A DNA stretch of 64,000 nucleotides from Naegleria gruberi. Taxonomy: Eukaryota. Numbering within the stretch: position 1 is the first letter of the stretch; each line of letters begins with the position of its first letter. The translations under genes were made by a program, and so were the position numbers. The notes under the pieces are model-generated. The model was given only the letters and a program-made list of their open reading frames with translations. It had not been told where the DNA came from and did not search any database. The DNA is taken from NCBI GenBank assembly GCA_000004985.1, contig GG738849.1, one strand, 5' to 3'. Below, in pieces: positions 46,484-63,718 of this stretch.

Positions 46484-48748
46484 TTAGGGAATTCTTTTAT
46501 CAAACATCATGTAACGATCGGGGAAGTTTGGAATTACATTATTTGGATCTTGCTTGTAAGCACACAAATTTTTAGCTGCATGACCAATGATTGTGATTGA
46601 TATCAATAATTTGAGAAGGAATAAGCATAAAAATCCAAGCAATGTTATGATAATTGGATAAATTACTTTGGAAAGAGAAGGAATGGCAATTAATGTCTCC
46701 AATGAATCCCAATTATTACTATATCCAAGAACAGCCACAAAGTGAAATAGCCATGGTAGCATTACTTCCATAATCATTCGAAGGGTGTGAGTGATGAGTG
46801 GGCCTTCCAAAAATCCCAATCTTCTTGCAACCTTACTTCTATTTGTATTGTGAAAGAAGGATGAGACAACCACTGAAGTTGTCTCACTCTTTTTTGCTGA
46901 ATCAGAATGAGATATCAAGTCGTCACATAACTTGAGAGTGTACATTCTAAATGTTGATGGATGAATGCTGTTAAACTTGGAGACAAAGGTATGCTTGAGA
47001 GTATCTACTAAAATCTCAGCACAAATCATGAATATGAAAATATGACCAAACTCTTCCAACTTGTCGTCGAGGAAGGAAAATAGTGAGCTAGAGCCTTCCA
47101 GGTTTGTCATAGTTTCAAAGTCATTCAAGTCAACTCCTTCAACAGGCCCAGAGGTTGAATCCACAATTGTTCTCAATGTGTTTTGTACAAAGATCAAAAT
47201 AGTAAACCAAAAAATCTCAAATCTTTCCACTACATCACTACTAGCTAGTTGGAAAAGATTCTCCTTTGTAAATCTCTTGAATACACTACCCTTCAATTCT
47301 ACAAAGTTTGTCGAGATAATCATTGTAAGAAGAGTGTAATTAGAACTATTCAGGGCTGCATTTAAGGTAACAATTCTAATCAATTGTACAATACTATGCA
47401 CATAGAGATAAATCATGTGGAATATGAACATTACTGTCATGTGCCCAAATTCTTTCCACGACCCACTCCTATCATTCAATATACCATTGACAAATTGTTT
47501 GGAAGAATAAAGGAGAGCTATTTGTGAATCTAGACCGAAGGAGGAACACAACTTGTCAAATACATCCAACATATTACCAATCACGTACAACTTTAAAATT
47601 GATTCTCCTCTAATGTAGTGATACAGTAGTGAATAGTCAGTTGTTTGCATGATGAGAATTATATTAATGACGAGGCAGAAAAACTTCACCAAATCAAATA
47701 GGACTGACTCATTCACACTCGGTTTTAATCTGCTATTTCCATTACTCATCTCTCTTAAACATCCTCTAAATGGTAATAGTATAATATATTTTACAATGGA
47801 CCAAATAATTCTCCACAATGATAAAAACACTCTCACAGGAAAGAAGGTCAAATAAAATAGAAATGTGTCCAAACAAATGAAAAATCCAAAGAATAAAAAT
47901 CTCTCCACTCTAATGGGTATCTCAATAAATTTGTACAATTGACCTCTCAATTCTTCATCTGTGAAACAATTATCTTTTGGATCGTGTGATAATTTGATAA
48001 ATCCATTTGGAAAATTATATGGTTTTCCATTTAGAGAACTTTGAGAATTATCACATATTGGTGTTGATTGAGTACTTGTAGGTGTTTCTGCGGACATTAT
48101 AACATCATTAGTAGATTTTCCTTCAGAATTTGAAATTACATTGGGCGAATTTCTTGTTGTCACATTCAATTCTCTGTGCAGATATCTCAAAAAACTATCA
48201 AACCTCTGTAATGGCATTTTCTTTTTCGATTTTAGTTGATTTTCTTCAATGTGTGGTGTTGCTAAATTCAATCGTTCAGAGATTGATCTCGAAGTTGTAT
48301 CAATATTTGGAGATTGCAATGTGTTGCAACCACTATCACTCCCATTGTCACTCGAAGCGGAAGGAGGAGTAAATGGTGAAGTGAGTGATTTTTTCCTCAA
48401 TCTTGTTGTGTTATCAATATTCAAACGAGGTGATGGAGCATCTGAAAAATCAAACACAATTCTTTCTGAAGCTGTTGATTCTCCACCAATTTGTACAATC
48501 TGAATAGGTGATGTTCCACTAGTACTATTATCAATCACGTTATTACCACTAATCAATAATGAATTATTCCGAATATTATTATTACTAATCAAAAAATCAA
48601 TCTGTTGTCCTTCTTCTCCTCCGATCAACCTTTTATCATTGTTATTTGTATCAATCCCATCCCGATCATCCAATTCTACTTCTTCTTCAACAATCCTACC
48701 AAAATTCATCCTAGTACCACTTGATAGATTGGGTGAGTTTGGTGTCAT
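46484..48748 (-). CDS. TAPT1: TAPT1/EMP65-family (DUF747) multi-pass membrane protein.
   Basis: Conserved core IRGESILKLYVIGNMLDVFDKLCSSFGLDSQIALL and multiple TM helices. Long low-complexity N-terminus. Confidence 0.8.
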   Translation of the reverse strand: MTPNSPNLSSGTRMNFGRIVEEEVELDDRDGIDTNNNDKRLIGGEEGQQIDFLISNNNIRNNSLLISGNNVIDNSTSGTSPIQIVQIGGESTASERIVFDFSDAPSPRLNIDNTTRLRKKSLTSPFTPPSASSDNGSDSGCNTLQSPNIDTTSRSISERLNLATPHIEENQLKSKKKMPLQRFDSFLRYLHRELNVTTRNSPNVISNSEGKSTNDVIMSAETPTSTQSTPICDNSQSSLNGKPYNFPNGFIKLSHDPKDNCFTDEELRGQLYKFIEIPIRVERFLFFGFFICLDTFLFYLTFFPVRVFLSLWRIIWSIVKYIILLPFRGCLREMSNGNSRLKPSVNESVLFDLVKFFCLVINIILIMQTTDYSLLYHYIRGESILKLYVIGNMLDVFDKLCSSFGLDSQIALLYSSKQFVNGILNDRSGSWKEFGHMTVMFIFHMIYLYVHSIVQLIRIVTLNAALNSSNYTLLTMIISTNFVELKGSVFKRFTKENLFQLASSDVVERFEIFWFTILIFVQNTLRTIVDSTSGPVEGVDLNDFETMTNLEGSSSLFSFLDDKLEEFGHIFIFMICAEILVDTLKHTFVSKFNSIHPSTFRMYTLKLCDDLISHSDSAKKSETTSVVVSSFFHNTNRSKVARRLGFLEGPLITHTLRMIMEVMLPWLFHFVAVLGYSNNWDSLETLIAIPSLSKVIYPIIITLLGFLCLFLLKLLISITIIGHAAKNLCAYKQDPNNVIPNFPDRYMMFDKRIP

Positions 48749-48952: not shown

Positions 48953-50601
48953 ATGAGTGAATCCGATAGAATCAATAACGCAACAACTTCATCGGGAGGG
49001 TATCATCAAGATGTGTATCACTCCTCACCAATATATGAAAGGGGTAGTGGTGGTGGTGACTCTATAAATGATGGTGGTGATGATGGAAGTGGTTTTCGTG
49101 GAATTTTAAAATGGAGAGAATATAATTATTGTGCCTATATTGTTCCTGCCATTTGTTTTGTTCTTACTTGTCTTGTTGTTATTCCATCAGTGATTACTCC
49201 TGCTTTATATTATAGTTATTCTAGAATTGGAAATAGAGCTAGTGATTTGAGTTGTGAATCTACTTGGTAGGTTGTTGTGGAAATGCATTTTCAACAATTT
49301 ATTTAGTTCTTATCAGATTGTTGAAAGTATTCCAATGGGAGTTGATCTCAAACTTGTTCCAAATACCGATTACACATATAATGCTTGGTCTTCAATTATT
49401 TCAAATGCCAAGTCTTCATTGACAATTGCTTGTTTTTATTCAAGTCTTCGTAATGATGCATCTGATGTTTCTGGTGGACAATTTGGTAACCAAGCATTTG
49501 ATAGTATTGCTAATGCTATCAAGAGAGGTATTAAAGTTCGTATTGTTCAAAATATTGCATCAAAGGAATTCCCAGATGATGATACTAGAGCTTTGGAGAA
49601 AATGGGTGCTGAACTCGTTTCAATTGATTGGAGTAAAGCCTTCTCAGGTGGTATTCTTCACACAAAGGCCATTGCTGTTGATGGACAACATTTCTACGTT
49701 GGAAGTGCAAATTTGGATTGGAGATCTTTGGCTCAAGTTAAGGAATTGGGTGTCAAGGTCACAAATTGTGCTTGTTTAACAAAGGATATTGAAAAAATTT
49801 TGGATATCTATTATACTCTTGGAAAGAATATGAATAGTACTTTTGAAGGTTTTAGAGGATGGCCTGAAAATACCTTCACCTCTGTCAATCAATTCTCTAG
49901 ATTGCTCGTTCCATTCGAGAATGAACCTCAAAAGAATGAATCAACTGTCTTTATGAGTGCTAGTCCAAAAATTATTAACGAACCACAAAGAACTAACGAT
50001 ATTGATGCCTTGTTGGCTGTTATTAACAATTCCACTCAATTTGTTCACATTTCTGTAATGGACTTTGTACCACTCTTAATGTATGCTGGTCCACAATTCC
50101 AATATTGGGGAGATATTGAAAGTAAGTATTTTATTAGATTTGTATTTATTCTAAAATTCATTAATAGATGCTCTTAAGGCTGCTATTATGAGAAATGTTA
50201 AAGTCAAGTTGCTTATCAGTAAATGGGATCACACCAAGTCATATCAAATTACTGTATTGCAATCATTGGTTGAATTTGGAGGTAAATTCTGTACTGAATC
50301 TCACAAGTGTACTGGCTCAATTTCTGCTAAAATCTTCCAACTTCCTGATCAACAAGATGCTCCAAAATATCCATTCACAAGAGTCAATCACGCCAAGTAT
50401 ATGGTCACAGAAAAGCAAGCCTACATTTCCACATCTAATTGGAGTAAGGACTACTTCTACACTACTGCAGGTATTTCATTTGTTAGTACCACCCCATCTT
50501 TGAGACAAACAGTTAATAGTATTTTTGAAAGAGATTATTCTTCCATTTATGCTTTTGATTTACCACCTGTCAATACAACTAAACTCTACGAATCCTACTA
50601 A
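48953..50601 (+). CDS. PLD3/PLD4-like phospholipase D-family protein with two HKD motifs and an N-terminal TM anchor. It has three exons (48953-49266, 49307-50121, 50168-50601) and very short introns of 40 and 46 nt.
   Basis: HKD1 is ILHTKAIAVDGQHFYVGSANLDWRS and HKD2 is VNHAKYMVTEKQAYISTSNWSKDY. Exon 1 has TM AYIVPAICFVLTCLVVIPSVI. The splice phases (2 and 1) reconcile the three ORF frames and restore ..YWGDIEN ALKAAIMRNVKVKLLISKWDH. Confidence 0.85.
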
Positions 50602-50716: not shown

Positions 50717-52627
50717 TTAATGGAATTTTACATATCTTTCGTGGAGCATTGAGGTAATCTTTTGGAATTTTGCAAACTCTCCATATTCTTCAGAGTCAAT
50801 ATCATTGATTTGTTGCTTGTGAACAACACCAAACTTTTTCTTTACATTTTGAAAGACATCTCTCACCATTGGAATGAGATATTTTTGTTGTGTAATGTCG
50901 ACAAACTTTCTATCAATCAAGGCACAAAACACAACAAGTGGAGTCATCTCATCACTAGTTCTGCATGATTCAAAGTAAAGTTTGATAAGTCCCTCAGTAA
51001 TTGCCAATCTCTTCTCGAGAGCATCCTTCATTACTGTGGATGCTCCTTTGACATCTTGTTGGTGTCTGTAGGCCATCAATAATTTCCAATGAATTTTGAT
51101 ATTGTTAATTTTGAAAAGATTAAGTGATCTCATTCTAGAAAGAATCACCCAAGCCTCTTTCATATTACCAACTCTACAGTAGGCATCAATGAGATCTTCC
51201 ATCATCATGGAGGTTGGTTTCAGTTTCTCCTTAGTTACAGCATAATCATAGATAGTCAACATTGTGTCAATATCAACCTCGTAAGTGTAGTTTGGTGGAA
51301 TGAAGGAACGAATCAAATGTTGGTAAATACTGGTCAGTTCCAAATTCAATCCATGCTTGAACTCGAGAGCATTCTCTGTTGGGGCGACATTGTCAAGACT
51401 TCCCACCACTTTTGCACTGGAATTATCCAAAAAGAATGCAGAGCTACTTCTGTAATCTTTGAACTTTCCTCTATTCAACAATAACCTGTGGAAAAGAGCT
51501 TTTGCTGCCTGTGGATTATAATAAGATCCAGATAGAAATAGTGATATAGAATCATAACATTTCAAATAGAAGAGGCCATATTCGTTTTCCATCAAATCCA
51601 AAGTTTCCATCATGACATTGATATTTCTAGATCCATGAATAACAAATCTAAATGTATCTTCATCAGGCTCATACCCAGAATCAATCATTATAGAAAAGTA
51701 TTTTGAAAGGAGTTCATTTTCCTGGAGAGGGGTTGTCATTGAGTTTGTTGCATCTCTCGACATGTTATCAGTACCAATTAATGCCAAAGCAGAAAGAAAA
51801 TGATTCCAATATGATGTATCCAGCTCAATACAATCATTCCACTGTGTAATTGCTTTTCTATAGTATTGAATGGCCTTGTCAACCTGATTGTCAACTCTGG
51901 ATGCATCGGTAAGGAAAATCAATGTTGTTAAATTAGGATTGATTCCATTCTTTTCCATAAATCTTTCCATTTCCCAAATCTGCTCCGTTGCTCGCAATCT
52001 CAAATAAATATCCATAAACATGTTAAATAAATGTACATCAAAAGCTAATACGTCTGGTCCAATATTATTAGAAATGTCATTTACAAATATAGCTTCCTTT
52101 TTGGCATCTCTGAACATGATGTCAACCTTTCGGAGAAGGGTTTCTCTATCTTGGAGAATTATTTTTCTTTCATTTGGATTATTTAAATAGTGCTGACTTC
52201 CCTGTAGTGCTTGTTTAATATTTGAAGATGATAATATTGTTCTATCATTTTTCAAGTAGCTTTGTTGACAATTTACTAATTTTCTTCTTATCAATGAAAC
52301 TTCATTTCTAATATTAACATTATTCCATCTTTGTGAAAAATTATTTAATAAAAGTCCAATATTTTGTTCATGTTTTGCCTTTAAATTATTACTCTCTTGA
52401 AAATGTTTTAAATTCTTCCTCATAAAATCAATATTGGTCAAGTATTTTCTCTGAATGGTGCTACTCTCAATGACATGATCTTGATGAAAAGCTGATGAAT
52501 AATTTCTTCTTTTATTCCCTTCCGAAGATTTTGAGAATTTTAAAACACCACAATGACCCAATAATAATTGTTTCCTAGTTGTTGATGATGTTCCGAGTAG
52601 GAATGAAACTTTGTTTGTGTTGTTCAT
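50717..52627 (-). CDS. Hypothetical helical-repeat protein with PPR-like repeats.
   Basis: 636-aa ORF with degenerate 35-aa helical repeats (DLIDAYCRVGNMKEAWVILSRMRS; FNMFMDIYLRLRATEQIWEMERFMEKNGINPN). Confidence 0.5.
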   Translation of the reverse strand: MNNTNKVSFLLGTSSTTRKQLLLGHCGVLKFSKSSEGNKRRNYSSAFHQDHVIESSTIQRKYLTNIDFMRKNLKHFQESNNLKAKHEQNIGLLLNNFSQRWNNVNIRNEVSLIRRKLVNCQQSYLKNDRTILSSSNIKQALQGSQHYLNNPNERKIILQDRETLLRKVDIMFRDAKKEAIFVNDISNNIGPDVLAFDVHLFNMFMDIYLRLRATEQIWEMERFMEKNGINPNLTTLIFLTDASRVDNQVDKAIQYYRKAITQWNDCIELDTSYWNHFLSALALIGTDNMSRDATNSMTTPLQENELLSKYFSIMIDSGYEPDEDTFRFVIHGSRNINVMMETLDLMENEYGLFYLKCYDSISLFLSGSYYNPQAAKALFHRLLLNRGKFKDYRSSSAFFLDNSSAKVVGSLDNVAPTENALEFKHGLNLELTSIYQHLIRSFIPPNYTYEVDIDTMLTIYDYAVTKEKLKPTSMMMEDLIDAYCRVGNMKEAWVILSRMRSLNLFKINNIKIHWKLLMAYRHQQDVKGASTVMKDALEKRLAITEGLIKLYFESCRTSDEMTPLVVFCALIDRKFVDITQQKYLIPMVRDVFQNVKKKFGVVHKQQINDIDSEEYGEFAKFQKITSMLHERYVKFH

Positions 52628-52884: not shown

Positions 52885-54194
52885 ATGAGTCATTATGCTA
52901 TGCCTTTTCTGATCTTCAATCTCGGTGGAGAGATGATGTACATTCTCCATCAAAGATTGGAAGCTCAAAAGATTACCGAGGAGAAGAGTAAGAAGGTTCT
53001 TCAAGATGTAGTCAAGCATATGTTTGATGAGGAATTTATTAATGAATTGGTTAAACCTCAAAAGATGTATTCTGATGCTTCTATTAGACATGTTTTTGAA
53101 AAGTTGGCACACTCCTCCATCATGAGACTCTCCACTAGCAGTATGAACAAGGTAAGGTTGAAATGGAAAATATTACGGAATTAATATTTCCTTATTGTTA
53201 TTATTACTTATAGTTGTACGATTTGATGGTAATGGGTTTAAAGTACTCTTTCATTGCCTGTAATCACCCTCATGAAATACTCCAATTTACTTTGAATCAC
53301 TTGGATGAAATTGAAAATATTATCGGCAAGCTTGATAGTGATGAAACTGCCCTAGAAGCAAAGAAGTGTGTTCAACGAGCTGTAAACGAAATTGTTGAGG
53401 TAAGTGCTCATTGAAAGGACTTATTATTTATATTAAATTGATCAATAGATCTCAAAGAAAATGTCCCTCAATGATTTTATTAAATGCAGATATACTATTT
53501 GTAATTTCTTGAAGGATAGAAATATAAAGGTTTCAATCTTTTTGAATTGCAAGATTCAACACCGATCAAATGGTCACTTTAGAATTCCAAACAATAAGCA
53601 ATATCCACTCGGATTTGATAAGCCTGGAACTTGCAGATATTTTGAAGCTGAAGGAAATTTGAAAGAAACTGAATTAATAGCAAATCACCCAATGAAAGAT
53701 TTTACTCACAGTACAGTTACACATTCTGATTCAAATCAAAGAACAAGTGATTTGGGGGCCAACTTGTAAGTTTATTCTCCTTCCTTTATTATATTTTATG
53801 AATTTCCTAAATTTGGAATTTGTTTATTAACCATAGCTACTCTTCCACAAAACCTAAAATTGCCCAACAAGAACACACTGATGATGATAATGAAAACTAT
53901 TCATTCTCTGCTGTGAAGAAGAGTCACGACACAACTAGTGAATTAAATTTCTTGGCAAACCTTATTCATGGACCAAAAGAAACAAAGGAAACCTTCAAGG
54001 TTAACCTCTTCTCCAAGTTTGATATTTTCGAAGAACCTGAGGAAGATGAAACCGTTGAAACTGTAGAGAAAAAGTTTGAGGAATTGATTTTCGATTGTAG
54101 AGTAAGCAATAGAGTGAATGTTGACTTTGATATTAGTTCCACTCCTTCAAACATTGTTGAACAAGATGACTTGTTGGAATTGATGGATTCATAA
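52885..54194 (+). CDS. OSCP1: OSCP1 (organic solute carrier partner 1) homologue with four exons (52885-53151, 53214-53399, 53449-53765, 53837-54194).
   Basis: N-terminus MPFLIFNLGGEMMYILHQRLEAQKI..KVLQDVV..MFDEEFINELVKPQKMYSDASIRHVFEKLAHSSIMRLSTSSMNK|LYDLMVMGLKYSF is collinear with metazoan OSCP1. Later exons match FLKDRNIKVSIFL..NGHFRIP and the C-terminal DDLLELMDS. Introns are GTAAGG/GTAAGT..AG with consistent phases. Confidence 0.85.
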
Positions 54195-54308: not shown

Positions 54309-56216
54309 ATGGATGAAATTAACCTTGATGATTTTGCAATAAAAAATGACTCAAGCCCGTCCGATATTGTAGATAGATTGGAAATTCCTCTTCACACCAA
54401 AAATCACCATCAACAGAATAGTTATAGTGAGGAAAATTTATTAAATAATTTAAAGCTGGCCTATGAATTTTCCAAACGATTAATCCGAACTTCACTTGGA
54501 CCATTCAGTAAAGATAAACTAATTGTCAAGGGTGATTTACAAAAAAGCATCCTTGTTACGAATGATGGACGAACGTTAATGGAGGAAATGTTCAAATTGA
54601 GATCTCTCAATGAGAATAGAGAACAACATCCAATTCATACACTACTCTATCAATTATCAAAAAATCAAGACAATACAGTAGGTGATGGAACAACTAGTGT
54701 TGTCGTCTTGTGTGGAGAAATGTGTAAATTATCTGTGGAATTGATTGAAAAATGGAATTTGAGTGTAGATAAGATTATGAAAGGTTTTCAAAAAACTTTG
54801 GATTATATTTTAAGAGAATGGTTATCTGTTTTTACGAAACCATTGAGAGAGGTTGACCCAACAGAGAGCTCTTTAAAAGCTAGTAGATTTTTAAACCTTT
54901 CAAAAATCAAAGATTTAACACAGAGTGATATTGAAAAAATTGCAGCTAAATCATGCCTCCTTTCCAAACAAGTGAAAAATATTTGTGAGGAACTCAGTTC
55001 AATAGCAGTGGAAGCCATTCACGCTACAGCAGGCAAGCTTCATTTCATCAATGTGGACACTCTGATTATTGATAATCAAAATTTAATGAATCAACAACAT
55101 ATTGACAGTAGTACTAATGTAATTCTAATTGAATCTGGAATATGTTTGGTTGGTAAAAATTTGGCATCCAATTTGAATATGAAATTTTCAATGAGAGATT
55201 GCAGAATTGCTCTATTTTCATGTCCCATAGAAACACCTCGACTCAAGACACGACACCACATTAATATTACCAATTCAAAACAATATCAAGAATTGGAAGC
55301 TGTTGAAAATTCCTACCTTGAAGAAGTTATTTCAATTCTGAAGAATTGTAATGTAAATATAATAGTCTCACAATGGGGATTCGATAATAGATTTCATGAT
55401 TACCTAGTTGAGAACAACCTTATTGGTATAAGGTGGGTTGGTGCCGATGAATTGGATAGAATTGCTCTCGCTACAGGTGCCTCAATTTGCCCACAAGTGG
55501 CTCACTTTACTGAAAATATGCTTGGTTATGCTGGAAAATTTGAATATCAGGAGGGTGACAAGTTAATGACCTTTACTGAGTGCATAGAACCAAAAGTTTG
55601 CTCAATCCTAATACGATCCTCAAATGAGTTTCTTGCCCAAGAAACAGCTCGTTCCATGAATGATGCGCTAATGAGTGTTCGATCCGTATATTCTCACCTC
55701 TCCAACAAACACAATGTGTTAGAAAAGAACTCTGAAGACAATTTGGAAACTCTCTCCCTTATTCCTCCATTAAGCTATGGAGGTGGATGTTTTGAAATGC
55801 AAATTTATTCTCTCGTAATGGAAAATTTGGAAAAGATTGAACCAAATGATTTTCTCACTCAAACCATTGCCAAGCATTGGGCAAAAAGCCTTCTGGTTGT
55901 TCCATCTACATTTGCTGAAAATTCAGGACTCTCTGTAATTGAAACAATTCAAACTCTGATTGACAAGCATCAATTAGGAGAATATTATTGTGGACTATTT
56001 GCCAACTCATTCACCCAAGATGATCTATTGAGAGATGAGAAACTGATTGAGGAATATTCCAAACCTTGTTCAAATACTTGCAATTTTCTAATGCAAATTA
56101 AGAATATGAGCGAGACACAAGTTATGGAAAATATTCTTGTCAAGATGAATGTTCTCATTTTAGCAACTGAAATGGTTAATATGATTTTAAAAATTGATGA
56201 GAATATCATGTATTGA
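54309..56216 (+). CDS. Divergent TCP-1/cpn60-family (group II chaperonin-like) protein of 635 aa.
   Basis: Retains the CCT signature VGDGTTSVVVLCGEM and the equatorial/apical/equatorial order, but is otherwise highly diverged from canonical CCT subunits. Confidence 0.7.
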   Translation: MDEINLDDFAIKNDSSPSDIVDRLEIPLHTKNHHQQNSYSEENLLNNLKLAYEFSKRLIRTSLGPFSKDKLIVKGDLQKSILVTNDGRTLMEEMFKLRSLNENREQHPIHTLLYQLSKNQDNTVGDGTTSVVVLCGEMCKLSVELIEKWNLSVDKIMKGFQKTLDYILREWLSVFTKPLREVDPTESSLKASRFLNLSKIKDLTQSDIEKIAAKSCLLSKQVKNICEELSSIAVEAIHATAGKLHFINVDTLIIDNQNLMNQQHIDSSTNVILIESGICLVGKNLASNLNMKFSMRDCRIALFSCPIETPRLKTRHHINITNSKQYQELEAVENSYLEEVISILKNCNVNIIVSQWGFDNRFHDYLVENNLIGIRWVGADELDRIALATGASICPQVAHFTENMLGYAGKFEYQEGDKLMTFTECIEPKVCSILIRSSNEFLAQETARSMNDALMSVRSVYSHLSNKHNVLEKNSEDNLETLSLIPPLSYGGGCFEMQIYSLVMENLEKIEPNDFLTQTIAKHWAKSLLVVPSTFAENSGLSVIETIQTLIDKHQLGEYYCGLFANSFTQDDLLRDEKLIEEYSKPCSNTCNFLMQIKNMSETQVMENILVKMNVLILATEMVNMILKIDENIMY

Positions 56217-56499: not shown

Positions 56500-57399
56500 A
56501 TGGCTGCTGTCGATCTCTCTGCTTATCCACGTGTTGATTTGGCTTTCATTGGTGGCACCGGTCTCTCAAAGGCTGAAGGTCTTGAAAATGTTATCACTGT
56601 TGAACCATTTGAAACTCCATTCGGTAAACCATCATCACCAATTGTTATTGGTACTATTAACGGTTTGACTGTTGCTTTCTTGTGTAGACACGGTCTTTCT
56701 CACTCTGTTCAACCAACCGATGTTCCATATCGTGCCAACATTTTTGCTCTCAAATCACTTGGTGCTAATAATTTAGTTTCTTTCGGAGCTGTTGGTTCAT
56801 TGCAAGAAGAATTGGCTCCAAAACACTTTGTTGTTGTTGACCAATTCATTGATCGTACCAAATTCCGTCAATCTGAAAATACTTTCTATGATAGAGAAGG
56901 TTTGGTTGCTCACGTTTCATTCGGTGAACCAACTTGTAAGACTTTGTCTCAATTGGTTGTTGATTCATGCTCACGTATTGAAACTATTCCAAAGACTCAT
57001 GCCACTGGTACTTATGTCTGTATGGAAGGTCCATGTTTCTCATCACGTGCCGAAAGTAAAATGTATAGAATGTGGGGTGGTAGTATCATCGGAATGACTT
57101 GTTTGCAAGAAGCTAAATTGGCTCGTGAAGCTGAAATGGCCTTTGCTTGTGTTGGTATGGTCACTGATTATGATGCTTGGAAAGATGAAGCTGAACCAGT
57201 TACTGTTGAAGAAGTTGTCAAGATTTTGCACGATAATGGTGACAATGCTAGAAGAGTTATTCAAGAAGTTGCCAAATCTTTCACCAAGTTTGAATCAAGT
57301 GCTCACTCTGCCATGAAATTCTCCTTGTTGAAGCCAGCCAGTAGTTTAAGCGATGATCTCAAGAAGACTTATGCTCCAATTTTGGCCAAATATTATTAA
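56500..57399 (+). CDS. MTAP: S-methyl-5'-thioadenosine phosphorylase (MTAP), PNP/MTAP family.
   Basis: IGGTGLS..FETPFGKPS..GTINGLTVAFLCRHG..H..P..V.YRANIFALKSLG and the C-terminal MTAP-type region. 299 aa. Confidence 0.92.
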   Translation: MAAVDLSAYPRVDLAFIGGTGLSKAEGLENVITVEPFETPFGKPSSPIVIGTINGLTVAFLCRHGLSHSVQPTDVPYRANIFALKSLGANNLVSFGAVGSLQEELAPKHFVVVDQFIDRTKFRQSENTFYDREGLVAHVSFGEPTCKTLSQLVVDSCSRIETIPKTHATGTYVCMEGPCFSSRAESKMYRMWGGSIIGMTCLQEAKLAREAEMAFACVGMVTDYDAWKDEAEPVTVEEVVKILHDNGDNARRVIQEVAKSFTKFESSAHSAMKFSLLKPASSLSDDLKKTYAPILAKYY

Positions 57400-57905: not shown

Positions 57906-60900
57906 TTGATGATTGATCCATCTCAAAATTCAGAGTTAGAAACCTCTTTTAATTTACTTGATCAAGAAGAAAAGGAATTAATTGAACCTCATTATCACTT
58001 TATCCAAAGATCATCAGATTGGATTGAATTAATTCATAACAAAAAACCTCTCAACAATATGCCTCATCGGAACATGTATAATGACACTCCAAGTGATACC
58101 AGCTCAAATAATATAACTCCAAGTAATGCCAATAATGATGATTCACCAGACGTTACACCACTTCATATTTATCTAACCACCCACAAACATGGTCACCACA
58201 TGATTCATGCAAAGAAGGATCAACCATTTGCTCCATCCTTTTTAAATGATGCTGGCTATGAGAGTGGCAGTTCCTCAAATGACGATGATACTGCTCCATC
58301 GAGTGCCTGCGATGAAGTCACTCCAGCCATAACTACTCCTGTTCACTTTCTAACAGAACAACATCATCCCTATTCACCTACCACAATTAACAAATCTTCC
58401 TCAACTAAAGAGTTTCCAACAAGTCACAATCCAGATAATGTACAAAAGTAAGTTTTCCCTTTTTGTTCAATGGAACTAAATTTTCTTGTGATTTGATCAT
58501 TATTTGAAATTTAGAAAAAGGTCTCGAGTTGCTTCTTTACCAGTTACAAATCAACAAGAGAAACTTGTCACAAATAATAATAGCAAAGCAAATCATCCTA
58601 CTATTACTACCAACGATAATAATACTCCTTCTACCACCTCTACCACTTCTCAAACACCTCCAACAAATATTAATAATCCAACTGCTGGTATTCATCATAT
58701 TCAAAGCCAGCCAAACATGCTTTCCAATCAACCAATATCTCTTCTTTCTCAATCATTATTAAAACAAAGTGATGAACATGACTTTTATATGGTCAACGAG
58801 GAAGAAGTTACAAGTGCTTCTGCACTTATTGGAAAACAAAAATATTATAGCGAGGTTAATTTACCAAGTATGGACGTTTCTCCTCTCAAATCGAATGGTC
58901 AATCAATGAAAAAACCAATCATCAAACATAATATTGGAAAACATCACCCAGAAGGAACAGAATCTTGGCTTTTACCAGGGGAATGTGTTCTTAATCATAT
59001 TAAAAAGGTTGGAGTCGTTAAAAATCTCCCAATTACATACTTTCCTCCAACTCATTCCAACCCACAAGCAATTTCATCTCAAGGACCTTTTATTGAGCAA
59101 CCAAAACAAGCTTCTGGAGAATTTTTAACAACAGCAGAGGAATTATTGAATGATTTTAATGTTTATGACTTATTGAATACAGTAGGCGGATCTAGCTCAA
59201 ATTATGGAAGTGCTGGAAGTACTATTAGCACTAATGGTAATGCTACTTCCACTAATGTTGGTGATCAATCTGATACTGAGCCTACTCTTGTTATTGGCGA
59301 GTTATATATTACAAATTATCAAATTAGATTCCAAGTAAGTTTCTCAATTTTTTTTAGTTATTTTAACAATTAAATAGTGCGTTGCTAAACCATCTCTAGT
59401 TCTATCAACTCCAACATCTTGTATTCTTAGAATGGCTCCAAAATATCCACAATCAGAGACAAATACCTACAGCAACTATTACAGTCAATATATTTCATCA
59501 AATGCAAATAATGGACCTACCACTGATAACAAGTTTAATAGTCTTGGATATATTAGTATTAAGAGCAAAGATTTGCAGGTTTTGAAATTTTTATTCTTTA
59601 GAGATTCTTCCTATACAATTGACAAAGTTATGGAGGCCCTTAAAGCTGCTACCTCAAAGAGAGTGTTTGCATTTGCATTCCGTAAACATATTTCCTCCTA
59701 TCCAATTCAAATATATTCTCAGGAGGATATTGAAAAGGGATGGAAGGTTTACAAGATGAAAAGAGAATTTAAAAGACAAGGCCTTTTCACAAGACACCAA
59801 AATAATCCAGCTTTTTCTTGGCGTATTAGTTCTATTAACTCAAAATTCAAAGTTTGTGACACTTATCCAGAACATTTTATTGTTCCTAAAGATGTTTCAG
59901 ATGAAATGCTTGCAGCTTCAGCAGCTTTTAGAAGTAAAGGAAGAATTCCAGTTCTTTCCTGGATTCATCCTCATAAGAATATTTGCATTGTAAGATCGAG
60001 TCAACCTATGGTAGGTATCACAAGAGCAAGATGTAAAGAAGATGAAGAGTTAGTTGATGCCATCAGAAGAGCATCTGGATCAGAGAGACTTCAGATTATT
60101 GACTGTAGACCAAAGGCAAACGCTTGGGCCAATACAGTTATGGGAAAGGGTTATGAAAATATTGCATACTATACTAACTGTTCAATAGAGTTCATGAATA
60201 TTGAAAATATTCATGCCATGACTAACAGTCTTAATTTGCTAAAGAAATTAATTCAAAATAAGCAAAATAACGATCAATATTGGCTATCTTCTTTTGAGGC
60301 AACAGGATGGTTAAAACATACCAAGTTAATCATGCAAGCAGCTTCAAAGGTTGTAACTTATATTGAAAGATTTGATACATCAGTACTTGTTCACTGTAGT
60401 GATGGATGGGATCGTACCGCACAAATCTGCGCACTTGCAGAGCTTTTATTAGACCCTTATTACAGAACTATTAAGGGATTTGAAATTCTAATTGAGAGAG
60501 AGTGGGTTTCTTTTGGTCACAAGTTTCTAGATCGTGTAGGACATGGATGTGTTGGAAAAACTAATTCAGCCTCTGATGAAATTTCTCCTGTTTTTTTACA
60601 ATTTATTGATTGTGTTTGGCAAATTTGGCAACAATATCCTTCACATTTCGAGTTTAATGAGGCGTTCCTCTTCTTAATATTGGACAGTTTATATTCTTGT
60701 CGTTTTGGAAACTTTTTATTGAATTGTGCTAAACAACAGCTCGATGAAAATATTACAAAGGATACTATTTCGGTTTGGACAGAAGTAATGACAAACCCTT
60801 CTCTGTATTATAACGATGTTTATAACCCAAAGAATAGCGAATATTCAACATTAATTGTAAATACCGACATTGACACACTCTCCACACACTTTTGGATAAG

Positions 60901-61240
60901 CTACTTTTATCGATACAAGAAGGGTTCAAAGAACAGATATCACAGAATGCTCAAAAAGGCTATCACCAAGATGAAGAAGGAAAATGCAATTCTCTTGAAT
61001 TCTTTACAAGAGGAACTGTTGACAAGGAAGAGAATTGAGCTAGAGTTGGCCCAATCCAAACAAAAAATCAAATTTCTCGAAGGTCATAATTCATTAACTG
61101 ATGAATCCCACATAAGTGATTCGTATGGAAGTCATCCTGCTTCTGACACTTTAAGTTACAATGGTGAAGATGGAGACACGAAAGTTATTCGCTTCTCAAC
61201 CAGTGTGAAAGAAAATCTGGTGGAAAATTACTTTAAGTAA
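57906..61240 (+). CDS. Myotubularin-family phosphoinositide 3-phosphatase (catalytically competent) with a GRAM domain. It has three exons (57906-58447, 58515-59334, 59378-61240) and introns of 67 and 43 nt.
   Basis: Active site VHCSDGWDRTAQ (C-x5-R) with flanking myotubularin motifs (RIPVLSWIHP, LIEREWVSFGHKF). The GRAM-like LLPGECVLNHIKKVG..GELYITNYQIRFQ is split by the second intron. The N-terminal exon is low-complexity. Confidence 0.85.
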
Positions 61241-61400: not shown

Positions 61401-63718
61401 GTCTTCAGAACCTTCTTCTAGTTCATTTACATATTCTTTACAAAGAGCCAAAATTGGTTTCATACTTTCTTCATCCAAATGTTCGTCATACCATTCAATA
61501 ACAGTATCATTATCCACAAGTTCTTGTACATTTAAAATCTTCACTATTGTGATAAGTGCTGGACGATACTTAACACCTTCATCGCTAGCTACAAAGTATA
61601 ACAAGTGGGTTAAGAGTAAAACTCTAGATTTCTTTACGCCCAACTTTAAGAAGTGTTCGAGCACTTCCATCCAACATCTCTTTCCATCTTTTCCAGTCAA
61701 TACATCAATAAACTTAGAAAGGAAATCAGTAATGTCATCCTTCTTTGAAATTGTGTCACAATAAACTAAAATACCAGTGAGACAACCAATGGCGATATCT
61801 TCAAAGCTGCTGTCATAGGTAAACTTGAGACCATTAAGTTCAAGTTTTGCATTTTCAATGCTGTGATTTTCGTCTATTGATCTTCTAATACTGGCTCTAA
61901 CCTCATCAAAGAAATCTATTCAGAAGGTAATTATGGATTGAAATATTACTAAATACTTACTAGCATCATCGATATCTTCATGATGTTGTTTGGTTGGCTT
62001 AACAACTTTATCACGCAAAGCCATATCTGATTCAAGTTTATCAGCATCAGCTTGAGAAACTCCCAATCTGTTAATTAATTGATCGCTCAAGAAGGATGGC
62101 AAAACGTGCAAAGAACCCACACCATTAACACCAACATAATTCTTGTTATTGACAACTTTTTTGGCAACCAGGTTGATACTTTTTCTTTCATTTTCAAAGG
62201 CATCATCAAATGAAACTTCTTCTTCTTGATTGGAATATTCATCCTTATCATATTCAATAGTTGTTAATCTGTGATGAGATTTGACAGTAAAATCTGGTCC
62301 AATAACAACATCATATGAAAGTACAGCACCGGTTTCCAATACAGAGTTTGTACACACTTTGACATTATCACAAATGAGAGATGATGTGATCTTTACATTA
62401 TCTTCAATAATAACATTATCCCAAATAAAACTAGCCTCAATTTGAACATTATTACCAATTTGAACATTTTTACCAATTACTGTTGCTTTGATCTTGGTAT
62501 TTTCTCCAATTATTGTTCCACTTCCAATTAAGCAATTTTCTCCAATCACACAACTCTTTGAGAGAGAAATGTTTGATTCATAATAGTTATTTGGTCTTGA
62601 ATATCTGAATGAAGTAGTTCCAGAAAAATTAGAATCTGGAGTGATAGGATACATCCATCTATTGATAAGATCCATGCTAATACTTTCATATGAATTGAGA
62701 TTACAAACTCTACCAGTATATCCATTATCATCAATATAAGCAATGACCTTATGTTCAACAACTTCCGATTTGTGGAGAACATATTTTTGGAATAAATCAT
62801 TTCTTAAATGCTTGTAATCGAATTGATCTTGGAAAACAGGAAGAATTTCAGGAGAACAAATATCAATTCTACAATCCATAACGTCAGAATAAATTCTAAT
62901 ATTATCTTTTGTTTGTTTAAAGTGACGAGTTTCAATCTTAAAATCAAGATTTTCCTTCTTTTCATTTTCATAATGTAATAATTGTTTACTCTTTTCAGAG
63001 ACAGCAATCCAAACAGAATCATTATCTTCATAGAATCTAACAGTATCTGGAGTACATTTACGGAAAATTGTTGTTGCCAAAATGTTGGAATCTAATTTTC
63101 TTTCAGCTCTAAAAAATGTACATTAAAATCAATCGAAATACAATAATAACATACTTGTGTCTTTCCACAATTGGTGCAAGATTAATATTACTAATCACAT
63201 CTCCTTGAATTAAAATAAAATCATTTCTAATTAAATCCATATCAGCAATTCTTCTGAGAGCATCACCAGCAGATTTGGCATCAGTTCCAACAATGGTAGA
63301 TACTTTAATATCAGCACTTGTTGCTTTTGGTGATTGTTTCCACTTGTTTGATGTTCTATTGACCAATTATTTGTATAAATATTTACTATTAATCTCTGGT
63401 ATCACTTACTCCAAATAACGTTTAATTTCATCGGCTCCGTGGCAACAATAAACATAAATTTCTTTTACTCCTGATGAAGCTAACAACTCCAAAATATATT
63501 CGATAATAGGAATGTTATTAACTGGAAGTAAACACTATTAAATAACAACAAGTGTGATTTTAATCAGCACGGATACTATTAAACAACATACTCTTGGTTT
63601 AGATAATGTAATTGGTCTCATTTCCTTTGTGAAAGAGTCGGCCAAAACGACCGCCTTTAAAACATCTTCAGTCTTGACTGGACCACCAGTCTTTTTAGTC
63701 TTTTTCATTTTTTTTAAA
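61278..63718 (-). CDS. EIF2B5: Translation initiation factor eIF2B epsilon subunit (nucleotidyltransferase-like N-terminal region, left-handed beta-helix hexapeptide repeats and a W2 domain with an acidic tail). It is multi-exon, with introns near 61920-61965, 63080-63108 and about 63370-63560. Exact boundaries are not resolved.
   Basis: N-terminal exon MKKTKKTGGPVKTEDVLKAVVLADSFTKEMRPITLSKPR. Hexapeptide-repeat block (IGENCLIGSGTIIGENTKIKATVIGKNVQIGNNVQIEASFIWDNVIIEDNVKI). C-terminal W2 domain (KDGKRCWMEVLEHFLK..LLYFVASDEGV..ILALCKEYVNELEEGSEDEDEEEEE). Confidence 0.8.

What the first reader, a model, noticed from the sequence alone, without database searches (positions are those of the whole stretch)
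54309..56216. Highly divergent TCP-1/cpn60-family chaperonin-like protein, a candidate BBS-type (MKKS/BBS6-like) chaperonin rather than a CCT subunit
The ORF keeps the group II chaperonin hallmark VGDGTTSVVVL and the overall domain order, but is far more diverged than the eight canonical CCT subunits ever are. It has several insertions and no clear ATP-hydrolysis (GDGTT is kept, but the downstream catalytic Asp context is unclear). Ciliated eukaryotes encode chaperonin-like BBS proteins with exactly this kind of divergence. The window also carries the ciliary genes B9D2 and OSCP1.
Basis: inference. Interest (0 to 1): 0.5.

Follow-up and report, generated by a model that had tools for sequence, protein, structure and literature searches.

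The report
Divergent CCT5-like chaperonin paralogue, not BBS-type
This Naegleria gruberi gene encodes a fast-evolving but still ATPase-competent offshoot of the CCT5 (epsilon) chaperonin subunit; it belongs to a small, apparently undescribed family also found in cilium-less slime moulds, so it is not a Bardet-Biedl-type ciliary chaperonin.

Summary
The 635-aa intron-free ORF at 54309-56216 (+) is real and is a full-length group II chaperonin (Pfam Cpn60_TCP1, E=4e-87). An AlphaFold model (pLDDT 82) best matches CCT5 chains of human TRiC. The protein is very divergent: 28-29% identical to canonical CCT5, whereas canonical CCT5s are 59-71% identical to each other. It has six insertions.

HMM scores, diagnostic residues (QWGFD, two Trp) and bootstrapped distance trees place it with CCT5 (71-96% support). 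It is never placed with verified human MKKS/BBS10, which lack these motifs, score about 45-56 bits against the family profile, and derive from the CCT8 lineage.

It belongs to a small divergent family (84% bootstrap) found in three Naegleria species, Dictyostelium discoideum, Tieghemostelium, Ceratiomyxa, Cavostelium, the malawimonad Gefionella, and environmental eukaryotes. Dictyostelids have no cilia, and D. discoideum has a separately named Cct5. dN/dS of 0.18 shows purifying selection.

Best reading: an extra CCT5-derived chaperonin paralogue, possibly ancient. A canonical CCT5 in Naegleria is inferred, not shown.

The parts
54309..56216 (+). Complete single-exon coding sequence (635 aa plus TGA) of the divergent CCT5-like group II chaperonin. 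It is the same gene as NAEGRDRAFT_30508 / XP_002681686 / D2V2R6.
   Evidence: ORF listing. Pfam PF00118, E=4e-87. P0001 differs only by three excised in-frame pieces. The N. fowleri and N. lovaniensis orthologues are also single-exon.
54309..54440 (+). Low-complexity N-terminal extension (about aa 1-44) before the first equatorial helix. It is poorly conserved even among Naegleria species.
   Evidence: pLDDT below 50 for residues 1-35. Alignment A1.
54495..54518 (+). LGPFSKDK, the equatorial nucleotide-site loop (canonical LGPxGxDK).
   Evidence: Motif alignment; coordinates.
54558..54575 (+). TNDGRT, the conserved Asp-containing nucleotide/Mg site motif (canonical TNDGAT).
54591..54617 (+). 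Insertion 1 (aa 95-103, FKLRSLNEN) in the equatorial domain. The same site carries 40-58-aa insertions in the Dictyostelium, Tieghemostelium and P0207 family members.
54678..54710 (+). VGDGTTSVVVL, the intact P-loop-like GDGTT(S) phosphate-binding motif.
54852..54914 (+). Insertion 2 (aa 182-202) in the first intermediate-domain segment. It overlaps the first piece wrongly spliced out of the public gene model.
   Evidence: Conserved in N. fowleri and N. lovaniensis.
55056..55088 (+). Insertion 3 (aa 250-260) in the apical domain; low model confidence.
55275..55346 (+). Long helix (aa 323-346) that follows the CPIETPRLKTRH segment. It corresponds to the helical protrusion (built-in lid) of group II chaperonins and has the same length as in CCT5.
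   Evidence: Secondary structure of the model. Lid-base alignment.
55368..55385 (+). SQWGFD, the CCT5-exclusive QWG(F/I)D signature. W356 is found only in CCT5 and this family.
55650..55670 (+). RSMNDAL, containing the catalytic Asp (D452), the equivalent of the Asp in canonical RSLHDAL.
   Evidence: Invariant in A1, A2 and A3.
55698..55763 (+). Insertion 4 (aa 464-485), Naegleria-specific, between the catalytic-Asp helix and the GGG strand. It overlaps the second piece missing from the public model.
55776..55796 (+). YGGGCFE, the conserved GGGxxE nucleotide-site motif.
56004..56069 (+). Insertion 5 (aa 566-587) in the C-terminal equatorial segment. The site is shared with the dictyostelid members, and it overlaps the third piece missing from the public model.
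56160..56198 (+). LATEMVNMILKID, the C-terminal equatorial helix. It is CCT5-like (LATQM..ILKIDD) but keeps the ancestral Glu (E621) where all canonical CCT5s have Gln.

Best explanation
The gene encodes an extra, fast-evolving paralogue of the CCT5 (epsilon) subunit of the cytosolic group II chaperonin. It is neither one of the eight canonical TRiC subunits nor a BBS-type chaperonin. It belongs to a small divergent family (working name CCT5-like) present in Naegleria (Heterolobosea), Amoebozoa (including cilium-less dictyostelids), a malawimonad, and some unidentified environmental eukaryotes.

Shown: a three-domain group II fold with a lid helix; a complete nucleotide-binding and hydrolysis site; CCT5-specific signatures, concentrated in the apical (substrate-binding) domain; and purifying selection.

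Inferred: the protein binds and hydrolyses ATP and works as a chaperonin subunit on some subset of substrates. Its interface-bearing equatorial domain is only about 30% identical to CCT5 and carries insertions. CCT5 itself is known to form homo-oligomeric rings. I therefore think it most likely acts outside the standard eight-membered TRiC ring, either as its own oligomer or as an accessory partner of CCT subunits, rather than occupying the epsilon position. Its function is not cilium-specific.
For: Fold and family: Pfam PF00118, E=4e-87. AF2 model with pLDDT 82 and pTM 0.81; the best PDB matches are CCT5 chains of closed human TRiC, E=5e-33, TM 0.79.

CCT5 affinity. The best NCBIfam model is CCT epsilon, at 252 bits against 226 for thermosome and 168 for the next CCT; epsilon is also best for 7 of 8 other family members. 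PDB phmmer gives CCT5 193 bits, thermosome 144 and CCT3 113. The family HMM scores CCT5 at 520-530 bits, thermosomes at 397-439, other CCTs at 253-370, and MKKS/BBS10 at 56/44. NJ bootstrap support for family plus CCT5 is 89%, and 71-96% in 7 of 8 variant analyses (96% with Naegleria alone; 51% with the slow half of sites only). Apical-domain identity is 34% to hCCT5, against 20% to a thermosome and 15% to hCCT8. Four positions, including W356 and W376, are exclusive to the family and CCT5.

Distinct family: monophyly at 84-99%, shared insertion sites, and named members in D. discoideum, T. lacteum, Ceratiomyxa, Cavostelium and Gefionella.

Paralogue rather than orthologue: D. discoideum has a separately named Cct5. 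N. gruberi has separately named canonical alpha, beta, gamma, delta and eta subunits. The family keeps ancestral states (E621, H554, S130) where canonical CCT5 is derived.

Functional: all ATPase motifs are intact. dN/dS is 0.18 at dS 0.69. The ORF is intact and single-exon in three species.
Against: A canonical CCT5 gene in Naegleria itself was not retrieved; the word-indexed searches could not target it. Paralogy in this organism therefore rests on inference. Trees are distance-based (Scoredist or gamma-Poisson NJ) on long branches. Using only the slowest half of sites, support drops to about 50%. The D. discoideum member scores slightly higher with thermosome models than with the epsilon model. 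References for non-CCT5 subunits are mostly single human sequences. No expression, interaction or biochemical data exist for any family member, so the mechanism (own oligomer versus TRiC-associated) is conjecture.
Confidence: 0.7

Rival explanations
1. It is an alternative epsilon subunit that swaps into the TRiC ring in place of canonical CCT5, as CCT6B replaces CCT6A in mammalian testis. This would give a specialised TRiC, for example during the burst of tubulin synthesis in amoeba-to-flagellate differentiation.
For: It shows specific CCT5 descent and retains CCT5 apical signatures and the lid. The ATPase site is intact. The full-length fold superposes on CCT5 in closed TRiC.
Against: It is only 28-29% identical to CCT5 overall, about 30% in the equatorial domain that makes ring contacts, and has five insertions. 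Known swap-in isoforms are close paralogues (established knowledge: human CCT6A and CCT6B are about 80% identical). It evolves fast (57% identity between Naegleria species), which is unexpected for a subunit locked between CCT7 and CCT2. Dictyostelid members exist although those organisms make no flagella.
Confidence: 0.2
2. It is simply the organism's only CCT5, a runaway fast-evolving orthologue.
For: CCT5 is its closest relative by every measure. UniProt's automatic name for the N. fowleri orthologue is 'CCT-epsilon'. I could not retrieve a canonical Naegleria CCT5.
Against: It groups with proteins from D. discoideum, which has a separately named Cct5. The other retrieved Naegleria CCT subunits carry ordinary subunit names. 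57% identity between two Naegleria species is as low as canonical CCT5 shows between eukaryotic supergroups. It keeps ancestral residues that all sampled canonical CCT5s have replaced.
Confidence: 0.06
3. It is a BBS-type chaperonin, either an orthologue of MKKS/BBS10/BBS12 or an independently evolved functional analogue that helps assemble the BBSome or ciliary complexes in the flagellate stage.
For: It is a divergent, insertion-bearing chaperonin-like protein in an organism that builds flagella and has ciliary genes (OSCP1 and B9D2 are in the window). Nothing excludes a role in flagellate differentiation in Naegleria specifically.
Against: Orthology is rejected. It never groups with verified MKKS/BBS10, those proteins score only 44-56 bits with the family HMM, and BBS chaperonins derive from CCT8 (PMC2846930). 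The ATPase motifs are intact here but degenerate in MKKS and BBS10. Family members are present in cilium-less dictyostelids. The neighbourhood is not conserved.
Confidence: 0.05
4. The 'family' is an artefact: independent, lineage-specific duplications of CCT5 in Naegleria, Amoebozoa and malawimonads, drawn together by long-branch attraction.
For: All members are long-branched. Monophyly falls to 50% with slow sites only. The distribution is patchy.
Against: Monophyly is 84-99% in the other analyses. Insertion sites are shared. There are family-specific residues (C139, W524), and ancestral states are retained jointly at E621, H554 and S130. The internal topology follows organismal relationships within Amoebozoa.
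Confidence: 0.15

Closest known systems
CCT5 / T-complex protein 1 subunit epsilon (canonical TRiC subunit; NCBIfam TIGR02343)
   Same: It is the closest relative by HMM score, pairwise score, structure match and tree. It shares the QWG(F/I)D motif, the CP.E.P..KT.H lid base and the LAT.M..ILKID helix. It has the same domain order and lid length and an intact ATPase site.
   Different: Identity is 28-29%, against about 60-70% among canonical CCT5s. It scores 252 bits against a 710-bit equivalog cutoff. It has five internal insertions and an N-terminal extension. It falls outside the canonical crown clade and retains ancestral residues (E621, among others). It evolves several-fold faster.
BBS chaperonin-like proteins MKKS/BBS6, BBS10, BBS12
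   Same: These are also divergent, insertion-bearing members of the Cpn60_TCP1 superfamily that lie outside the eight canonical CCT subunits.
   Different: They derive from the CCT8 lineage (PMC2846930). MKKS and BBS10 lack GDGTT and the catalytic Asp. They are far more divergent, with at most 102 bits to any group II model and 44-56 bits to this family's HMM. They do not group with this family. They are tied to cilia, whereas this family occurs in cilium-less dictyostelids.
Tissue- or lineage-specific CCT paralogues (CCT6B, CCT8L1/2)
   Same: They are extra copies derived from one particular CCT subunit, in addition to the canonical eight.
   Different: They are recent and closely similar to their parent (vertebrate or mammal specific; PMC2846930). 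This family is deeply divergent and spans Discoba, Amoebozoa and Malawimonada.
Archaeal thermosome subunits and homo-oligomeric CCT5 (e.g. PDB 5UYX)
   Same: They are full-length, ATPase-competent group II subunits able to build rings without eight different partners. Thermosome models are the second-best match.
   Different: Homo-oligomerisation of this protein is untested. The apical domain is CCT5-like, not thermosome-like (34% against 20% identity).

Membership tests
Group II chaperonin (Cpn60_TCP1 superfamily) | Significant match to PF00118 over the whole length | tested here: met
   E=4.2e-87, 293 bits against a cutoff of 34.3.
Group II chaperonin (Cpn60_TCP1 superfamily) | Three-domain equatorial-intermediate-apical fold with a helical-protrusion lid | tested here: met
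   AF2 model with pLDDT 82. Foldseek TM 0.78-0.89 to CCT and thermosome chains over about 600 columns. A lid helix at aa 323-346, with no deletion relative to CCT5.
Group II chaperonin (Cpn60_TCP1 superfamily) | Nucleotide-binding and hydrolysis motifs (LGPxGxDK, TNDG, GDGTT, catalytic Asp, GGGxxE) | tested here: met
   All are present in register. There is one conservative change, Gly to Ser in LGPFSKDK, as also seen in CCT3.
Group II chaperonin (Cpn60_TCP1 superfamily) | Assembly into double-ring oligomers and ATP-dependent folding activity | not testable with these tools
   Requires biochemistry or cryo-EM.
Canonical CCT epsilon (CCT5) subunit | Score at or above the equivalog cutoff of TIGR02343 | tested here: not met
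   251.6 bits against 710.5. Other family members score 236-470 bits.
Canonical CCT epsilon (CCT5) subunit | Epsilon is the best-matching subunit model, with CCT5-specific signature residues | tested here: met
   Epsilon ranks first. QWGFD, W356, N363, W376 and G379 are exclusive to CCT5 and this family.
Canonical CCT epsilon (CCT5) subunit | Phylogenetic position inside the clade of canonical CCT5 orthologues | tested here: not met
   It forms a separate clade that is sister to canonical CCT5. Canonical CCT5 excluding the family has 51-99% support depending on taxon set.
Canonical CCT epsilon (CCT5) subunit | Single-copy occupant of the epsilon position in the hetero-octameric TRiC ring | not testable with these tools
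   Presence of a second, canonical CCT5 in Naegleria could not be checked (no access to the rest of the genome). It is documented only for D. discoideum, and indirectly.
BBS-type chaperonins (MKKS/BBS6, BBS10, BBS12) | Common descent with MKKS/BBS10/BBS12 from the CCT8 lineage | tested here: not met
   MKKS and BBS10 pair at 95% near CCT8. They join the family in 0-21% of bootstrap replicates. The theta model and hCCT8 are among the weakest matches. Literature basis: PMC2846930.
BBS-type chaperonins (MKKS/BBS6, BBS10, BBS12) | Specific sequence similarity to MKKS, BBS10 or BBS12 | tested here: not met
   The family HMM gives MKKS 56 bits, BBS10 44 bits and BBS12 (unverified sequence) 38 bits, against 530 bits for CCT5. 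There are no BLAST hits of family members to MKKS or BBS10 above noise.
BBS-type chaperonins (MKKS/BBS6, BBS10, BBS12) | Occurrence restricted to organisms with cilia and a BBSome | tested here: not met
   Family members occur in Dictyostelium discoideum and Tieghemostelium lacteum. Absence of cilia in Dictyostelia is established knowledge.
BBS-type chaperonins (MKKS/BBS6, BBS10, BBS12) | Role in BBSome assembly together with CCT subunits | not testable with these tools
   Requires interaction or genetic experiments.

The most novel reading that the evidence does not exclude
The family is a ninth, ancient CCT-type paralogue. It split from the CCT5 stem before the canonical CCT5 crown group, and so was possibly present in the last eukaryotic common ancestor, given its presence in Discoba, Amoebozoa and Malawimonada. 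It was then lost from animals, fungi, plants and most other lineages. It may survive as an independent ATP-driven chaperonin, perhaps homo-oligomeric like recombinant CCT5, with its own client set.
Probability: 0.3. Interest if true: 0.6.

Novelty: new variant of a known kind. Interest (0 to 1): 0.4.

Why it matters
TRiC/CCT is usually described as a fixed set of eight ancient paralogues. The known extras are BBS6/10/12, CCT6B and CCT8L. An additional CCT5-derived lineage that keeps a working ATPase site, is under selection, and is scattered across three deep eukaryotic groups would extend the chaperonin gene family. It raises a testable question: do some protists run a second cytosolic chaperonin system, or a variant TRiC? 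Because Dictyostelium carries a member, the question is experimentally tractable. For genome annotation, the result corrects two errors: the public N. gruberi gene model, which lacks three in-frame segments, and the automatic 'CCT-epsilon' label on the N. fowleri orthologue.

Tried and rejected
1. Finding Naegleria's canonical CCT5. Three word-indexed protein searches returned only the 120 best hits and no Naegleria CCT5. The third search, with a broadened profile, re-used essentially the same candidate pool and added nothing.

2. Sample co-occurrence of divergent and canonical CCT5 in Logan assemblies. The samples do not overlap, so this was uninformative.

3. Literature. There is no paper on a Naegleria CCT5 paralogue, the locus tags, or BBS chaperonins in Naegleria. 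The N. gruberi genome paper and the differentiation microarray paper are not held. The Naegleria RNA-seq preprint has no held supplements. The N. fowleri transcriptome supplements contain no CCT entries. The W. magna supplement names N. gruberi CCT alpha, beta, gamma, delta and eta, but no epsilon was visible.

4. Structure. The first AF2 model, from 8 sequences, was unusable (pLDDT 49).

5. Reference sequences. P0023 and P0206 were initially suspected to be family members. They were rejected as a canonical CCT5 fragment and a thermosome-like tandem fusion, respectively. My recollection of human BBS12 is not an exact database sequence; it was used only as an unverified extra.

6. Gene-neighbourhood argument for a ciliary role. 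This was rejected because synteny is not conserved.
Full report
OBSERVATION. The window is Naegleria gruberi. The best database hit to the ORF is NAEGRDRAFT_30508 / XP_002681686 / D2V2R6. An uninterrupted ORF runs from 54309 to 56216 on the + strand (635 aa). The public 580-aa model is identical except for 2 junction residues and three excised in-frame pieces, at about window 54885-54947, 55719-55775 and 55992-56036. All three pieces are conserved in the N. fowleri and N. lovaniensis orthologues, and those orthologues are themselves single uninterrupted exons. The continuous 635-aa ORF is therefore the better gene model.

Pfam gives Cpn60_TCP1 at E=4e-87. The hallmark VGDGTTSVVVL is at aa 124-134. 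The protein is extremely divergent: 28-29% identical to canonical CCT5s, which are 59-71% identical to one another. Relative to human CCT5 it has insertions at aa 95-103, 182-202, 250-260, 464-485 and 566-587, plus an N-terminal extension.

LGPFSKDK, TNDGRT, GDGTTS, RSMN-D452-AL and YGGGCFE all align in register with CCTs and thermosomes.

WHICH CHAPERONIN? Subunit-specific NCBIfam models rank CCT epsilon first at 251.6 bits. Thermosome alpha follows at 225.6, gamma at 167.9 and theta at 144.5. All are far below the equivalog cutoffs. Against PDB sequences, CCT5 scores 193 bits, thermosomes up to 145 and CCT3 113. A deep-alignment AlphaFold model (130 sequences, pLDDT 82, pTM 0.81) matches CCT5 chains of closed human TRiC best (E=5e-33, TM 0.79). 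The low-confidence stretches coincide with the insertions.

Human MKKS and BBS10 were verified as exact database sequences. My BBS12 recollection was not exact and was used only as an unverified extra.

A WIDER FAMILY. The word-indexed search found orthologues in N. lovaniensis and N. fowleri (57% identity) and five unnamed proteins at 33-36% (P0004-P0008). An exhaustive profile search of 1.84 billion cluster representatives found further clusters that are closer to this group than to anything else. Exact look-ups named them:
- Dictyostelium discoideum (KAM9965084)
- Tieghemostelium lacteum (DLAC_10550)
- Ceratiomyxa fruticulosa
- Cavostelium apophysatum
- the malawimonad Gefionella okellyi

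For 7 of 8 tested members the epsilon model is again the best. For D. discoideum it is the best CCT model but lies slightly below the thermosome models.

An HMM of the 17-member family scores:
- CCT5 at 520-530 bits
- thermosomes at 397-439 bits
- other CCTs at 253-370 bits, with CCT8 lowest
- MKKS at 56, BBS10 at 44 and BBS12 (unverified) at 38 bits

PHYLOGENY. I aligned 63 sequences with MAFFT L-INS-i and kept 501 columns. The method was Scoredist distances, neighbour joining and 200 bootstraps. The results were:
- the 17 family sequences are monophyletic (84%)
- family plus CCT5 is separated from all other CCTs, thermosomes, MKKS and BBS10 (89%)
- MKKS and BBS10 pair (95%) next to CCT8 (weakly supported)
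- Amoebozoan members cluster together

Across eight variants (alternative distance, removal of partial sequences, of BBS proteins, of divergent CCT5s, or of all but one family lineage), family plus CCT5 receives 71-96% support, and 96% with Naegleria alone. With only the slowest half of sites it receives 51%. BBS proteins attach to family members in 0-21% of replicates.

Tree-independent characters agree. W356, N363, W376 and G379 are shared only by the family and CCT5. C139 and W524 are family-specific. At S130, H554 and E621 the family keeps the state of thermosomes and other CCTs where canonical CCT5 is derived; Gln at the E621 position is found in 11 of 11 canonical CCT5s. The apical domain, the most subunit-specific region, is 34% identical to hCCT5, against 20% to a thermosome and 15% to hCCT8. 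Two insertion sites are shared with the dictyostelid and P0207 members.

Together these results indicate a lineage that branched from the CCT5 stem before the sampled canonical CCT5 crown. Long-branch artefacts in distance trees cannot be excluded.

BBS HYPOTHESIS. Mukherjee et al. 2010 (PMC2846930) found MKKS, BBS10 and BBS12 to be a monophyletic offshoot of CCT8. Here, verified MKKS and BBS10 behave quite differently from the query. MKKS scores at most 102 bits (thermosome), its best CCT model is theta, and the epsilon model is below threshold. BBS10 scores at most 54 bits, over its N-terminus only. Both lack GDGTT and the catalytic Asp. Family members also occur in dictyostelids, which have no cilia (established knowledge). 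The nearby ciliary genes are not informative: OSCP1 is immediately upstream and B9D2 is 52 kb away. The other neighbours are housekeeping genes, and the neighbourhood differs in N. fowleri and N. lovaniensis. Orthology to BBS chaperonins is therefore rejected, and a cilium-specific role is unlikely.

PARALOGUE OR SOLE CCT5? I could not retrieve a canonical Naegleria CCT5. The evidence is indirect:
- D. discoideum, which carries a family member annotated only as 'hypothetical protein', has a separately named Cct5 detected by proteomics
- N. gruberi has ordinarily named CCT alpha, beta, gamma, delta and eta
- the protein has diverged as much between two Naegleria species (57% identity) as canonical CCT5 has between supergroups
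- it retains ancestral residues that canonical CCT5s have replaced

I put the 'sole CCT5' alternative at about 6%.

FUNCTION. Shown: the ORF is intact in three species, with dN/dS of 0.18 at dS 0.69 between N. fowleri and N. lovaniensis. The nucleotide site is complete, the lid helix is retained, and the apical domain is CCT5-like.

Inferred: it is an ATP-hydrolysing chaperonin subunit. Whether it replaces CCT5 in a variant TRiC, forms its own oligomer (recombinant human CCT5 homo-oligomerises; established knowledge, e.g. PDB 5UYX listed), or partners with a subset of CCT subunits cannot be decided from sequence. I favour a role outside the standard ring. The reasons are its low equatorial-domain identity, its insertions and its fast evolution.

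NOVELTY. No paper in the searchable library mentions this gene or such a family. It is best classed as a new variant of a known kind: a previously undescribed CCT5-derived paralogue family. The most novel reading still open is a ninth, near-LECA CCT paralogue that has been retained patchily.

Noticed in passing
window about 54885-54947, 55719-55775, 55992-56036: The public N. gruberi gene model (XP_002681686, 580 aa) splices out three in-frame stretches as introns. All three are conserved as coding sequence in the single-exon N. fowleri and N. lovaniensis orthologues, so the model appears to be wrong.
   Followed up: yes
window 52885-53769 (+), possibly extending to 54194: A multi-exon OSCP1 (PF10188) gene lies directly upstream of the chaperonin. 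The 124-aa ORF at 53820-54194 has no Pfam match and may be its last exon or a separate small gene.
   Followed up: partly
It is on the + strand as a single tblastn segment.
   Followed up: partly
window 56500-57399 (+); 59432-61240 (+); 61920-63080 (-); 50717-52627 (-); 49254-50177 (+); 46484-48748 (-): Neighbouring genes are an MTAP-like purine/uridine phosphorylase, a myotubularin-type phosphatase, eIF2B-epsilon-like, a PPR protein, a PLD-domain protein and a DUF747 membrane protein. This is an ordinary housekeeping mix.
   Followed up: partly
L007 (N. fowleri) and L008 (N. lovaniensis), whole loci: The orthologues are syntenic between N. fowleri and N. lovaniensis (PSF2, abhydrolase, NAD-binding dehydrogenase, PPR protein) but not with N. 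gruberi. A PPR-repeat gene lies within a few kb of the chaperonin in all three species, which may be chance.
   Followed up: no
proteins P0206, P0220, P0343 (representative search): Polypeptides of about 1050 aa contain two complete thermosome-like group II chaperonin modules in tandem. They could be natural fusions or merged gene calls.
   Followed up: no
L001 (Logan ERR14790941 contig, 10.6 kb): The unidentified eukaryote that carries family member P0005 has a very compact, apparently intron-poor genome (Vps16, translin, cwf18 and abhydrolase genes packed within 10 kb). Its identity is unknown. In the tree its group (P0004-P0008, P0207, P0355) is the closest to Naegleria (81%).
   Followed up: partly
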